Positions 6,001 to 21,000 of a DNA stretch of 64,000 nucleotides are shown in pieces; positions within the stretch are counted from its first letter, which is position 1; each line of letters begins with the position of its first letter. The DNA is from Lytechinus pictus. Lineage: Eukaryota. Location: positions 14,384,001-14,448,000 of the forward strand of contig NC_087258.1 of the NCBI RefSeq assembly GCF_037042905.1. Reading direction: 5' to 3'. The position numbers were made by a program.

Positions 6001-9000
6001 TACTCTGAACTCGGGTTTAGATTAACCCTGGTTTCAAGTTGTGGTTTAACTATGGAGAGCCGATCGGGGTACAAATCCCTTAACAGCACACACTCAATTT
6101 ATTAACCCGTTTGACACTCAAATTGTCCATCTCGCTACCCCAAATAGCGATTTCGCCGAGATCCGGGAAAATCCCTGTAACGCGCATTGCATTATGGGAT
6201 AGCTTTTCGGTATTACAACTTCCTGTTCGGAAGTCCAATGCACTGTTTTGCCATTCAGATCAACAGTGCCGTCATGCACAACAACACAACGTCGCTTTCG
6301 CTCGGAAAGCTCGTGATCACAACCCTCTCTTTCACGATACAGTTTAACGGCCTTTTCTGCTAAAGTCACTAATTCTGCCCGACGCTTTCCATTGCACGGT
6401 ATTCCTCTGTCAGTTAAGATTTTTTTAAGTTCCGAAACTGATTTTTTATCCATTTTGTGGTCGACGAAAAATTTAACGGAATGAATGCTGTATATATTTA
6501 GCGTCTAGTCGAATACGATCGTGATGTCAGGCCGGTCGCTATTAAAATCAAAATTTTAAGATATTCATTTTTTGTTAATTTTTTTTATAACCAAATAAAA
6601 ACATGAATAAAAATTATTTTCACGTGAAATATATTTTTTATTTTTATTTATACTTCAAATGGAATCAAAACTGACCAAATTAAATAAAAAGTATTATAAT
6701 CTGTACATATTACGCTGATTGGCATCGATTTCAGCGTGGTGGAAAACTCAGTATCGCGAAACTCGCGCAAGCATTACTCTGAACCGGAAGTGGTGATGAC
6801 GACCCGACGGAGTGAAAATTATCTCGTCTCGCGCATTATGAGATTTTTGTTCCTATTTGGGGTAGCGAGAATTGTCAAGGAATGGTAACAAGTATTATTT
6901 TTTGGCTCCCCATATTTTTAACACAGAGTTAGGCCTTGGTCTAAGTTAAACCTGACTTCAGAATACGGGCCTATAAGTTCTCTAGATGAAGCTTTAATCA
7001 TGAATAGTAAGATTATCTTATACGTCCAACTAAATCTGTAATCACCTTTCAGAGATAGGATTTTATTTAATGCAGGCCTTGCCAGCGTCGGATTACAAAT
7101 AAATCGGGGAAAATACAAAGGGGTTTATATACCAAAAAGGTTGTATGAAAGAGAATCACAGGTCTCTTTTTTATCTGTTACTTTTAAGCTTTTAATCCGC
7201 TGCGCAAAAACTATTGGTCCGTAGTACGAATGGTTTTGACCAATTTGGTTCGGCGCTATACTGCTATTTTATGCTAAATTCTTACACGATGCTGCCATCT
7301 GGTTCGCCGGGGGCGATTGTGGCATATTACAATAAATACAATGCACATCTCATTACAGAATTCAATGAATACCCTTTTTTCAATTCAATTCAATTAATTT
7401 TTTTTGATGATCAAACATGTTAATAACTATGTCACTTTAAAAAAAATTGCCGGAGCTGGAAAATTCATGTTTACAAGTTTGTGTTGGCACAATGAATTAC
7501 AAGTTAAAACATATTTCGACACAATCTCAGCGGGTCAAGCTCAATACTCACAATGACCACTAGTAAAAATGATCACTAGTTTTAATGTTCATTAGTCAAA
7601 ATAAAGACCACTAGTCATAATGAACATTTGTCATAATGACCACTAGTCACAATGACCACTAGTCATGATCTCCGAGTAACTGTAGGGAAATATGAATTGG
7701 GCACCCGATCAAAATAAAATTTCATATGAAATCAAAATGGTTGTGAAAACAAACACACGCACTTTTATATATTCCACATCATGACTGTTTTCGGGCATGT
7801 ATATTCACGTAATAAAGTTACCATGTTGTCAGAATGAATTACACATAACACAAAAAACTATGACATGTAAATAAGTGACCTTTTCTGGACTTTAAGGTAC
7901 ATTATTTGAGATCTTTTCATCAGATTGACGTCAATAACCCGTTTTTTTAATACTGGATTTACGGTCACATTTGAATGAATCAGAACAAGACAACAAATAA
8001 AGTTCCTTTACCCCAAATCAATTCGTGACAAGTGAAGGTAAGAATTTTTTTAAGTCTCGATAAAGCTCCAAATGTTTTTCAAGGATTTTCCCCTCCAAGG
8101 AAAGGAAATGAAAGTTTATGAATATCAAATTCTTTGAAAAGGGAGGCACTATTAAATAGCTATATTATTGTTTTTATATCAACATATGTCCCTTATTACG
8201 CACAATTTAATTTTGTTTTAAACGTGTCAAGTACTAACTCAATGGCCTTTTTATACTAGCTTCTTTTTTATCTCTGGATCTCTCGTCATGATACTTTCAC
8301 TTTCTCTTCGTCTTCCTCCTACTCTCTATTCCTCCATTTCCGACACCCACCCGCCACGGTCACTCTAGGATCACGCGCGTAAAACATTTCCAATAGACTC
8401 GTGCGGTAAAATTACACTGTTTAAAAAATCATAAAAAATGAAGTTGAAATTAGAGGGTTGAATATTTACTACCAGTAGATATGATACATATCAGACATTC
8501 CATATCTGACCAGAATAGGTTAGCTTAGCCAGCTCATTTTTAAAATAAATCGGCATTTATGCAGACATCTCCTCACGGGATCAAATTCATCACCTGAGAC
8601 AGCAAAATAGCCCTATTCTTCCGCCAGCCCCCAAAAAGTTCCAAAATCATCAATATTTCGTCAAACTTTGGGCAAAGGAAGTTCAGTAGTTGCCCTTCCT
8701 GTAATCAGTGTTAGATGGTCAATCATATCATACTCTTGTCAATCAGCAATATCAAATTTAAACAAATTCGAATAGGTGGAGACGAATTAATATATTTTTC
8801 CTTCCTGTTGTAATTAGGCTCGTGGCACCTGTATCTCTCTCACTACCATGTACCTATCACACCCACACCAACATACACAAACACACACTCTCACCCCCAT
8901 GCCCTTTCACCATGTTCGCTATACAGAACAAACCTCAGTCTTACATTTCCAGCTAGCGAGAGATGTTTTCCTCAAACAAAATATTCCAAGCTTCCATTTC

Positions 9001-18000: not shown

Positions 18001-21000
18001 NNNNNNNNNNNNNNNNNNNNNNNNNNNNNNNNNNTAACACCTACTTTATTAGAGTCTCTATGAGCTCTACAGTGATTTTTTTGTGTGCGGCATATTTACC
18101 CTGGTTTTAGCAGAATACCTACCAAGTACAGATTCCCCTCACCTGGGTTGAGTGTAGCACAATGTGGATAAACTTCAACTAAACGACATAAGGTAATTTC
18201 ATTAGTTATTTTTTTATTTGAACAAATTATTGCTATTGGTGTTGGTCCTCTTACCTTTGATTTACCAGGACATCCGTGATCACTTCCCTCACGTTCTCGT
18301 CGGTAGCGTAGAATCTGTTGAGAATCCTTCCAATTCCCTTAGTCTTGACCTTGACAGCATTGGACGCTTGATCAAATATCACTGGCATGACGACCAGTGG
18401 TACAGCATGGTATATAGCTTCTAGAATGCCTCGCAAACCGCCATGATATATCATCAATCTTGCTTTAGGGTGACCTGTCATTAAACATAGCAAACATTTA
18501 CATATATTAAAAAAAATAACATCCCCTCATCAAATTCATGGGAGAGTATTATTAAGCAAAGAGTGATTTGTCACTGATAAGTTTGCTCTGAAAATGAAAA
18601 TATATTGACATCCTATAACAATATAGCTATATGAAAACACTGAAATTTTCTTTAATATGATACCCTCCCCGGTTAGGCGTTGAGTTGCGTCCAGTGGCGG
18701 ATCCGGGGGGGGGGGCACATCCGGTCCGTGCCCCCCCCCCCCCTCTTTTGAGAGACATAGTCAATATTTTTAATGTAAACATGTCGTTCATATACACAAG
18801 TGATGACCTTTGGTTTTTTTTGTAATTTTTTTTCTAGAAAAAATGTGCCCCCCTTTAAAAAAAAAATCCTGGATTCGCCCCTGGTTGCATCTAATGTTTC
18901 ATTTCTGTTTATATCCAACACGAATTATATACTGGGTTTATGCGTATTCAGATAAATAGTTTTCTATTTGAAAAGTGCATTATGATTTTAGCCATACACG
19001 ACCCCAAAGAGTAAGGAAGGAAGCAGGAACTACATATTGCATTATAATTATTGCTTTCTTCGCCGTGAGTGTGGGAGGAAGAGGGGGGGGGGGGTGATCA
19101 TCACATCTATGTTTTTTCCTCAAGTTTGGGTAAATCATCTAGACACATTTTTAGCGGTTCCGTTACATTTTTTTCGGCGACAATGGTTCCGCTGGAAAAC
19201 CTGTATGCTAAGCTAAACATGGGCCTGAAACTTAACCTCCAATTCTAAATCCCAATACTTATCTTAGCATAAATCTAAAACCAAATACTTTATCACAATC
19301 CTAACTCTAACCCTATGCCCTCTGAAATATTAAGACAGGAGCAAAGTTCGCACGAGAAAAATATCGTGTCACTGTTTTGAGCAGTATTGTGTATGGTGTG
19401 TTGGCGTATTCTTCAATAGGGGCAACAGAAAAAAATTATTTTTTTTAATGATAAAGTCGAACGTTTCGGTAGCACAATGAGTTAAAAAAAGTTGAGGGCC
19501 TGGGGCAACATAAGTCGTCTGGGGCAAAATTTATCGATCAACCAAAATGTTGACCTTTTGAATACACAAATCCAATTCTGTGATAGATTTCGACATAATA
19601 TTCAGAAAATAGAATAATATATTACCCCATTTTCATTTCATTTTCACCCCCTTTCTCCCTATATTCCGGGGTTGAGATAGATTTGGGGTCCATGTCACCC
19701 CCACCTCCTTGCGCCCCCATCTGTACCAGTGTTGTCAGGTCCAAACTGAAGAAAATCCCCTAAAGGCACTAAAAAATCCCCCAAATTGAATTCCAAATCC
19801 CCAAATTTTTCAAATCACAATTTCTTTCGTTGCCAACTAACTAGTTCGCTGAGGTACAATCTCTGTGTTAACTATATCTACAGTAGATCGTATATTATTA
19901 GCGTTATCGCCGGATGCGTCGGACGTTATATAACTGAAAAATAACACTTTTTTTTTTGCTTTTCAACAAAACCTTCCAAAATCCCCTAAAATAGACAAAA
20001 AAACCAAAAATTTAGTTTGATTCCCAAATATTTTTTCATCCCCAAATGCTTCTGGAAATCCCAATTTGTTTAATGGCAATGCCAATATCGAGCAGCTTAC
20101 CAAGTATGTCGTTCTGGGGTATCCAGTCTACGATCAACGTGTTATTGCCAAGGTGACGGGGGCGTGGCCCAATATACCGCCAGATCACTCTCTGTGGAAG
20201 CTCACTGAAGACTCTGGCGAAGACCTCTGCCATATGTAATGGCACCCGCGTAAAATAAGAGCCCTGATGTACGAGAGAAGATACAAACTTTAACTGAAGG
20301 ATAGTCTATTAAGGAAGGCCTCCATGGTTATTCGTATCTATAGAAGGCGCGATAGCTCAGTCGGTAGAGCGGGGGATTCGTATTCCGGTGATCCGGGTTC
20401 GATTCCCACTTGGTGCGCTAGTTCCCTTTGGTAAGGCATTAATCCTCAGTACCAGGTCCTTCGGAGAGGACCTTCAGCCGTCGGTCCTCTGGTTGCTTGC
20501 TTACAAGCATTCATGCTTTCTTAGCAATCAGGTAAAAAAATCCCCACCAATCAATCAACCAATCTAGCGGTTAAGGTGAGATTTTTAATGAAAAAAGGTA
20601 ACCCTTTTAATATGATCGAACATATCATGTGCACTTAAAATGATGATAATGAAATATAAACCTGTGTATATTAGGTAGATTATGGGGGAGGGATCTCTGT
20701 ATCAAATTTAAATTATGATATATATTCACTTTTCAGTGGTTTATAATTAGTTAGGCATTATTGTTGCTGTTTTTATGTAAATCGAATGGCAAATGAGAAA
20801 TATGGAATAAATGAAATGAAAAAGAACACAAATAATATTCATGAAGAAATGCATACAACTGTTTCACTGAAATAATGCAAAATTTTCTTTTATAGAATGC
20901 CATGTCTTTGTTATCCCTTCTCCGATTTTGAAGAAATGTTCAGTGTTTTGATGTCTGATTTTACTTTTATTTGTTCCAAACATTATTTTCACCCAGGAGT

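What the first reader, a model, noticed from the sequence alone, without database searches (positions are those of the whole stretch)
7080..18079. The last UGT exon is also duplicated: two intact alternative termini with different 3' UTRs
A 3.7-kb duplication copied exon 5 with its acceptor but not exon 4. Both copies are open and keep a KxKxx ER signal (KSKLE, KSKLD); they differ by G/S in the TM helix. Copy 5b has a 329-bp LINE tail inserted between the stop and the AATAAA at 9029-9034, adding another AATAAA at 9291-9296. With nine intact first exons, this allows up to 18 exon combinations from one catalytic core. Human UGT1A also has alternative last exons, though its 5b is non-homologous and truncating.
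[Added by the scan's program, not by the reader: the finding's places include an assembly gap (unread letters, written N; its length is only estimated) at 17875 to 18034. Whether the letters on both sides are continuous or in frame is not known: test that first.]
Basis: partly seen in the sequence, partly recalled or inferred. Interest (0 to 1): 0.65.

Follow-up and report, generated by a model that had tools for sequence, protein, structure and literature searches.

The report
Duplicated last exon of urchin UGT
A sea-urchin detoxification gene (a UDP-glucuronosyltransferase with many alternative first exons) carries a very recent second copy of its last exon a few kilobases downstream; the copy is still readable, but nothing yet shows that the animal uses it.

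Summary
The window is Lytechinus pictus (sea urchin), not human. A named NCBI protein (P0001, "UDP-glucuronosyltransferase 1-2-like isoform X1") matches the nearest first exon, exon 3 and exon 5a at 100%.

Block A (7080-10824) and block B (12525-18080) are colinear. Each carries the last UGT exon with its acceptor, stop and AATAAA, and neither carries exon 4. The exons differ at 3 of 274 bases (G/S, E/D, one silent). The N gap lies inside intron 4 and no reading frame crosses it. Its flanks are colinear with block A.

The coding part is no better conserved than its surroundings (1.09% against 1.66%, p = 0.62), and 81% of simulated copies with three random substitutions stay open. So "both intact" reflects youth, not use. 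The only protein model I could read uses 5a. The two acceptors are identical for 67 nt, and 5a comes first with its own poly(A) signal, so I expect 5b to be minor or unused.

A haplotype mis-join is not excluded, because urchin heterozygosity is 3-5%. It is disfavoured: no gap separates the copies, and a 1.7-kb spacer with unrelated flanks lies between them. Reads and RNA-seq would decide.

The parts
7080..10824 (-). Duplicated block A (distal copy): about 1.95 kb of DNA downstream of the poly(A) signal, the 3' UTR, exon 5b and about 0.9 kb of intron
   Evidence: Colinear with 12525-18080.
12525..18080 (-). Duplicated block B (proximal copy): the same content with exon 5a, plus a 2-kb transposon and the N gap
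9654..9927 (-). Exon 5b coding part with its stop. It ends ...KSKLD and has Ser in the membrane-spanning stretch.
   Evidence: Open frame, sequence, Pfam UDPGT positions 411-497 with E = 3.3e-19, translation
16795..17068 (-). Exon 5a coding part with its stop. It ends ...KSKLE and is the terminus used by the NCBI model P0001.
   Evidence: 100% match to P0001 residues 431-521
9029..9034 (-). AATAAA of copy 5b inherited with the duplication, 622 nt after the stop
9038..9364 (+). 327-bp insertion in the 5b 3' UTR. It ends in (ATTCA)6 on the + strand and brings two more sense-strand AATAAA (9291-9296 and 9167-9172).
   Evidence: Block B has the empty site. Tandem repeat at 9335-9366. AATAAA scan. 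No match elsewhere in the window.
16516..16521 (-). AATAAA of copy 5a, 276 nt after the stop
13321..15354 (.). 2034-bp element with 341-bp terminal inverted repeats, flanked by an 8-bp target-site duplication TAAATAAG (13313-13320 and 15355-15362). It is absent from block A.
10825..12524 (.). 1.7-kb spacer between the two blocks. It contains no N. It is unrelated to the sequence left of A or right of B. The part from about 11570 to 12420 is a repeat family with diverged copies at 51582-52078.
17875..18034 (.). Assembly gap inside intron 4, within block B. Not filled.
   Evidence: N run listed. Flanks are colinear with block A. Position relative to exon 4.
18255..18474 (-). Exon 4 (220 nt, donor gtaaga). 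It is single-copy and would be the shared donor for 5a and 5b.
20101..20263 (-). Exon 3 (163 nt)
21397..21453 (-). Exon 2 (57 nt)
22104..46672 (-). Tandem array of 10 first exons (unit about 2.57 kb). Nine are intact, each with ATG and a GTAAAC donor. The copy at 30173-31024 has a stop at codon 119.

Best explanation
This is the 3' end of a Lytechinus pictus UGT gene built like a vertebrate UGT1 cluster: ten tandem first exons followed by one set of exons 2-5.

A recent local duplication of about 3.4 kb placed a second copy 7.1 kb further downstream. The copied block runs from 175 bp into intron 4 to about 2 kb past the poly(A) signal, and a 1.7-kb spacer separates the copies. After the duplication, a 2-kb inverted-repeat transposon landed in the proximal copy, and a 327-bp retroposon-like piece landed in the 3' UTR of the distal copy.

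The distal exon (5b) is still open because it is young, at about 1% divergence, not because selection has visibly kept it.

Expected mechanism (inferred). Transcripts splice exon 4 to the first acceptor they meet (5a) and are cleaved at the 5a AATAAA. Exon 5b could be used only when both the 5a acceptor and the 5a poly(A) site are skipped. It should therefore be a minor or unused terminus. If used, it would give the same enzyme with Gly->Ser in the membrane anchor, Glu->Asp at the last residue, and a longer 3' UTR interrupted by the insertion.
For: **Shown**
- *Identity of the locus.* P0001 (L. pictus, NCBI) matches the first exon at 22418-23269, exon 3 and exon 5a at 100%. Every exon scores on Pfam UDPGT.
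- *Duplication and its limits.*.
- *Insertions later than the duplication.* One has a clean 8-bp target-site duplication. For both, the other copy shows the empty site.
- *Physical arrangement.* No N lies between the copies. Both novel junctions (A|spacer and spacer|B) sit in uninterrupted sequence, and the flanks are unrelated to each other.
- *The locus makes real recent tandem copies.* Ten 2.57-kb units are 96.6-99.1% identical. Two haplotypes cannot produce ten copies.
- *No sign of constraint on the coding part.* 3 of 274 against 49 of 2947 differences (p = 0.62). pN/pS is 0.58. 81% of random three-substitution copies stay open.
- *Equal acceptor strength.* The first difference lies 68 nt upstream of the acceptor, so the 67 nt before it are identical.
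- *Use of 5a.* The readable model ends ...KSKLE.
- *A third version of exon 5.* P0002, named L. pictus in nr, ends FLIYS...CLKNRKSKLE. If it comes from the same animal, this speaks for more than two copies.
- *Low genome-wide false duplication.* The L. pictus assembly has 1.36% duplicated BUSCO genes (PMC9557091, passage).

**Inferred**
- Dominance of the proximal exon follows from general knowledge of co-transcriptional splicing and poly(A) site competition.
Against: - No reads, no depth and no transcripts could be examined, so neither the reality of the duplication nor the disuse of 5b is shown directly.
- Divergence between A and B is 0.25-4% by segment, 1.6% overall. This lies inside the allelic range reported for sea urchins: 2.9% in L. 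variegatus and 4-5% in S. purpuratus (PMC9557091). TE and indel differences are equally expected between haplotypes.
- An N gap lies inside block B.
- P0001 is called "isoform X1" and its 90% cluster holds 3 sequences.
- The source of P0002 is unknown. It may be a paralogue from elsewhere in the genome.
Confidence: 0.55

Rival explanations
1. One reading: 5a and 5b are a working pair of alternative last exons. Both are spliced to exon 4, giving two full-length ER-anchored enzymes per first exon, with different 3' UTRs and therefore different regulation.
For: - Both exons have everything a terminal exon needs: an identical acceptor region, an open frame, a hydrophobic anchor, a KxKxx end and an AATAAA with a U/GU-rich stretch downstream.
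- The insertion gives 5b a distinct, longer 3' UTR with extra AATAAA.
- Ser and Asp at the two variant positions also occur in a more distant relative, P0006, so they should be tolerated.
- Human UGT1A uses alternative 3' exons with distinct 3' UTRs (PMC10814044).
- The P0001 cluster has unseen members.
Against: - The coding part shows no excess conservation over the flanks.
- The only readable model uses 5a.
- No short database protein carries 5b (1 candidate, none significant).
- The signals are equal and 5a is 7.1 kb nearer, with its own poly(A) site, so 5a should win (inference).
- The proteins would differ by two conservative residues.
Confidence: 0.2
2. Assembly artefact (a heterotype false duplication): A and B are the two alleles of a single-copy segment that the assembler laid one after the other.
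For: - Divergence is in the allelic range for urchins.
- The large presence/absence insertions (2034 bp and 327 bp) look like ordinary haplotype polymorphism.
- An N gap lies in block B and further gaps lie nearby.
- False exon duplications within one scaffold are documented in other assemblies (PMC9516828, passages).
Against: - The hallmark "gap between the duplicated pair" (PMC9516828) is not met. 10825-12524 contains no N.
- Alleles should share flanks. Here the sequence right of A (the spacer) is unrelated to the sequence right of B (exon 4 side), and the sequence left of B is unrelated to the sequence left of A. Two extra structural differences, exactly at the block ends, would be needed.
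- The uninterrupted assembly of ten units that are 97-99% identical suggests long reads able to span the 11-kb A-spacer-B stretch (inference).
- The assembly has low BUSCO duplication, 1.36%.
Confidence: 0.2

Closest known systems
Vertebrate UGT1 (UGT1A) variable/constant gene cluster
   Same: - A tandem array of first exons, each with its own ATG and donor, encodes the signal peptide and N-terminal domain (Pfam UDPGT 5-263).
- One set of four downstream exons encodes the sugar-donor domain, the membrane anchor and a dilysine-type tail (organisation as described in PMC1885805 and PMC2819257, passages).
- Exon 4 is 220 nt and exons 2+3 sum to 220 nt. From memory only, this equals human 220 and 132+88.
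   Different: - The organism is an echinoderm.
- The first exons are almost identical (0-13 differences in 284 residues), not diversified.
- The split between exons 2 and 3 is elsewhere (57+163 nt).
- Splicing of each first exon to the shared exons is not shown. Only the nearest one is used in P0001.
- The last constant exon is present twice.
Human UGT1A exon 5a / 5b alternative 3' exons (i1 and i2 isoforms)
   Same: Two alternative terminal exons could follow exon 4, with different 3' UTRs, doubling the transcripts per first exon (PMC10814044).
   Different: - Human 5b lies in intron 4, upstream of 5a. It is unrelated in sequence and replaces the last 99 residues by 10, giving a truncated protein without an anchor.
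- Here 5b lies downstream of 5a, is a 98.9% identical duplicate, and would give a full-length protein. Its use is unproven.
Heterotype false duplication in diploid genome assemblies
   Same: Two adjacent copies about 98% identical that differ by SNPs and by presence or absence of insertions, in a highly heterozygous species.
   Different: There is no gap between the copies. A unique spacer and non-homologous flanks lie at both block ends. Read depth was not testable.

Membership tests
UDP-glucuronosyl/glucosyltransferase (Pfam PF00201, UDPGT) | Each exon matches the family profile above the curated cut-off of 19.5 bits | tested here: met
   first exon 103.6 bits (profile 5-263), exon 3 54.0 (283-337), exon 4 57.0 (336-408), 5b 69.5 and 5a 68.7 (411-497). 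Exons were searched one by one.
UDP-glucuronosyl/glucosyltransferase (Pfam PF00201, UDPGT) | Glycosyl-transfer activity and choice of sugar donor | not testable with these tools
The name "glucuronosyltransferase" comes from NCBI's automatic naming of P0001.
UGT1-type variable/constant cluster | Several tandem first exons, each with a start codon and splice donor and without an acceptor, upstream of a single set of shared exons | tested here: met
   10 copies, 9 intact, all followed by GTAAAC. Exons 2, 3 and 4 are present once.
UGT1-type variable/constant cluster | Each first exon is separately spliced to the shared exons (shown by cDNA) | not testable with these tools
   Only P0001 could be read, and it uses the nearest first exon. 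The cluster members could not be listed.
Alternative last exons | Two terminal exons, each with its own acceptor, stop codon and poly(A) signal, downstream of one shared donor | tested here: met
Alternative last exons | Transcripts that use each terminal exon | not testable with these tools
   No transcript data. 5a is used in P0001. No protein fragment with 5b was found.
Dilysine (KxKxx) ER-retention tail | Lys at positions -3 and -5 from the C-terminus, on the cytosolic side of a membrane span | tested here: met
   KSKLE and KSKLD follow the stretch IDVLAFI(G/S)AILLVTTFLVYSCCI. The pattern itself is recalled knowledge, and retention was not tested.
   The tail (ATTCA)6.4 is present. The target-site duplication is at most 2 bp. 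There is no match to anything else in the window, including the LINE ORF at 2-3565, whose own 3' end lies off the window. There is no tRNA or Rfam match. No repeat library was available.
Heterotype false duplication | A gap between the two copies | tested here: not met
   There are no N in 10825-12524. The only N run in the finding lies inside block B.
Heterotype false duplication | Half (haploid) read depth and haplotype-specific k-mers over both copies | not testable with these tools
   No reads were available.

The most novel reading that the evidence does not exclude
The duplication is real, and 5b is a regulated alternative terminal exon. An echinoderm UGT1-like cluster would then have doubled its last constant exon, so the same enzymes can be made with a second 3' UTR partly built from a transposon insertion that supplies extra poly(A) signals, and with a slightly altered membrane anchor. 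This would be a homologous-duplicate counterpart of the human 5a/5b switch that arose independently outside vertebrates.
Probability: 0.15. Interest if true: 0.55.

Novelty: new member of a known kind. Interest (0 to 1): 0.3.

Why it matters
If 5b is used, this locus would show how a variable/constant gene cluster gains a second 3' end by simple duplication. It would also be a very young example in which the birth of an alternative last exon and of a transposon-derived 3' UTR can be watched.

If 5b is unused, or the copy is an assembly artefact, the practical lesson is narrower. Intact duplicated exons at about 1% divergence in a highly heterozygous genome should not be counted as isoform diversity.

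The broader point may matter more than the exon-5 copy itself: a UGT1-like array of alternative first exons exists in a sea urchin. In three full-text searches I found no paper describing such an organisation outside vertebrates.

Tried and rejected
- **Listing the other members of the P0001 and P0002 clusters**, to see whether an annotated isoform ends in KSKLD. 
- **Searching for short database proteins carrying 5b**. There was 1 candidate and none was significant. This is weak evidence, because 5a and 5b forms would fall into one 90% cluster.
- **Reading the L. pictus genome paper for the assembly method.** It is not held under its DOI or PMC id. My belief that the assembly is long-read based rests on the uninterrupted ten-unit array and on memory.
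- **Looking for selection on the exon**. No signal was found, and the counts are too small to show relaxation either.
- **Looking for microhomology or a target-site duplication at the four block junctions**. None was found, so the duplication mechanism stays open.
- **Repeat-mediated unequal crossing-over.** Rejected, because the spacer shares nothing with the sequence left of A or right of B.
- **Retroposition of the exon.** Rejected, because intron and downstream DNA were copied too.
- **Matching the 327-bp insert to LINE sequence in the window**. No match.
- **Rfam and tRNA scans of the window**. Nothing found.
- **Testing whether the 154-aa + strand ORF repeated in the array is a LINE fragment**. 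No support.
- **Collections not used.** No other urchin genome could be compared, so the age and species range of the duplication are unchecked.
- **Joined protein.** Exons were handled one by one, so I could not look up a full-length 5b-ending protein by identity.
- **Supplements.** Supplementary files of papers were not opened.
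Full report
**What the window is.** The 90-residue translation of the distal exon finds named Lytechinus proteins. P0001 is [quoted passage not shown], 521 aa. Compared with the window by tblastn, it matches the first exon at 22418-23269, exon 3 and exon 5a at 100%. 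The window is therefore sea-urchin DNA, not human. The gene lies on the minus strand. I handled the exons one by one and left out the step of joining them into a spliced protein and searching with it.

**Gene anatomy.**
- *First exons.* There are ten copies of 852 coding nt, in a tandem array of 2.57-kb units (22104-46672). The units are 96.6-99.1% identical.
  - Nine copies are open from ATG to a GTAAAC donor. The copy at 30173-31024 has a stop at codon 119.
  - The nine give 8 distinct peptides, differing at 16 of 284 positions (0-13 differences per pair, mean 4.9).
- *Shared exons.* Exon 2 is 21397-21453 (57 nt). Exon 3 is 20101-20263 (163 nt). Exon 4 is 18255-18474 (220 nt, donor gtaaga).
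- *Last exon.* It occurs twice: 5a at 16795-17068 and 5b at 9654-9927.
- *Family match.* Each exon scores on Pfam UDPGT over successive parts of the profile.

**The duplication.** Block A (7080-10824) and block B (12525-18080) are colinear.
- Each block holds about 0.9 kb of intron 4, the acceptor, the coding part, the 3' UTR, an AATAAA and about 1.95 kb of DNA beyond it.
- The block ends 175 bp short of exon 4, so exon 4 is single.
- Block B carries a 2034-bp element (13321-15354) with 341-bp terminal inverted repeats and an 8-bp target-site duplication TAAATAAG. Block A has the empty site.
- Block A carries a 327-bp insert (9038-9364) between the stop and the inherited AATAAA. Block B has the empty site.
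  - The insert ends in (ATTCA)6 on the + strand.
  - It adds sense-strand AATAAA at 9291-9296 and 9167-9172.
  - It matches nothing else in the window, so "LINE tail" is plausible but unverified.
- Between the blocks lie 1700 bp (10825-12524) without any N. This spacer is partly a repeat family with diverged copies at 51582-52078. It is unrelated to the sequence left of A or right of B.

**The gap.** The N run at 17875-18034 lies in intron 4, 220 bp after exon 4 and 806 bp before the 5a acceptor, so no reading frame crosses it.
- The 56 bp to its left and the 46 bp to its right align with block A in the same order and orientation, at 54 of 56 and 45 of 46.
- The matched flanks are 118 bp apart in A and 162 bp apart in B.
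- This is consistent with continuity across the gap. I did not infer its letters.

**Do two intact exons mean two used exons?** The evidence does not show it.
- A piecewise alignment gives these mismatch rates:

| Region | Mismatch rate |
|---|---|
| Downstream DNA | 0.98% |
| 3' UTR | 4.07% |
| Coding part | 1.09% (3 of 274) |
| Proximal 100 nt of intron | 1.04% |
| Rest of intron | 2.88% |

- The coding part does not differ from the non-coding remainder (49 of 2947; Fisher p = 0.62).
- The three coding differences are Gly/Ser, Glu/Asp and one silent change, giving pN/pS = 0.58.
- In 20,000 simulations, 81% of copies given three random substitutions remained open.
- Intactness is therefore what a young neutral copy would show.
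- The acceptors cannot be distinguished. The first difference lies 68 nt upstream.
- With equal signals, the proximal exon with its own AATAAA 276 nt after the stop should be spliced and cleaved before the polymerase reaches 5b, 7.1 kb further on. This step is inference from general knowledge, not a result.
- The only protein model I could read ends with 5a.
- A search for short proteins carrying 5b found none (1 candidate, none significant).

**Real or artefact?**
- *For an artefact.* Sea-urchin heterozygosity is reported at 2.9% (L. variegatus) to 4-5% (S. purpuratus) (PMC9557091, passages). The 1.6% overall divergence and the presence/absence insertions would therefore fit two alleles.
- *Hallmarks of false duplication.* They are half read depth, gaps between the copies, and haplotype-specific k-mers (PMC9516828, passages). 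Depth and k-mers cannot be tested here.
- *Against an artefact.*
  - The gap criterion is not met.
  - Alleles should share flanks, whereas here both novel junctions lie in uninterrupted sequence with unrelated flanks.
  - The ten-unit array shows that this locus really does make recent tandem copies.
  - The L. pictus assembly has 1.36% duplicated BUSCO genes.
- *A third exon-5 version.* P0002, named L. pictus in nr, differs from 5a at 3 residues and from 5b at 5. Its origin is unknown, so it is only a weak argument for more than two copies.
- *My weighting.* I put a real duplication at about 0.75-0.8 and an artefact at about 0.2.

**Comparison with what is known.**
- The overall layout is that of vertebrate Ugt1 clusters: variable first exons plus four constant exons (PMC1885805 and PMC2819257, passages).
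- Human UGT1A has an alternative exon 5b. It lies in intron 4, is unrelated to 5a, and replaces the last 99 residues by 10 (PMC10814044, passages). The urchin 5b lies downstream of 5a and is a near-identical duplicate.
- My three full-text searches turned up no paper describing a UGT variable/constant cluster or a duplicated constant exon in an invertebrate. This is a limited search, not proof of absence.

**Verdict.** The most likely reading is a real, very young local duplication whose distal exon is still open but is probably little used or unused (confidence 0.55). The rivals are a working pair of alternative last exons (0.2) and a haplotype mis-join (0.2). Read mapping and junction counts in RNA-seq would settle both questions.

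Noticed in passing
window 22104-46672 (minus strand): The UGT gene has a vertebrate-UGT1-like array of 10 nearly identical first exons (9 intact) in 2.57-kb units. The three nearest units (22104-28637) match the three farthest (40150-46672) at 99.08%, better than any other offset (96.6-98.5%). This points to a higher-order block duplication or an assembly effect.
   Followed up: partly
window 50712-57678 (+ strand) and 9657-21453 (minus strand): P0002 (nr, L. pictus, 417 aa) joins N-terminal exons that map to the + strand here (two of them at 100%) to UGT exons 2-5, which lie on the minus strand. The UGT part has 4 residue differences from P0001. It looks like a chimeric or obsolete model, or a second locus.
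   Followed up: partly
window 2-3565 (minus strand): A long open LINE-type ORF (1188 aa, running off the window) with endonuclease, reverse-transcriptase and zf-RVT domains.
   Followed up: partly
window 31647-32111, 34218-34682, 36789-37253, 39360-39824, 44542-45006 (+ strand): A 154-aa ORF on the opposite strand recurs in five of the array units listed. It has no Pfam match and no significant similarity to the LINE ORF.
   Followed up: partly
window 6118-6504 (minus strand): A 128-aa open frame with a SAP domain (E = 6.8e-07) lies just downstream of block A. It may be an exon of the next gene or part of a mobile element.
   Followed up: no
window 18255-18474, 20101-20263, 21397-21453: Exon 4 is 220 nt and exons 2+3 sum to 220 nt. 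From memory, this equals human UGT1A (220 and 132+88), hinting that some intron positions are shared with vertebrates. I did not check this against a vertebrate sequence.
   Followed up: no
window 21631-21888, 21916-22103, 54851-55243: Three further N runs. The first two lie in intron 1, between the nearest first exon and exon 2. The third is flanked by long simple-sequence tracts.
   Followed up: no
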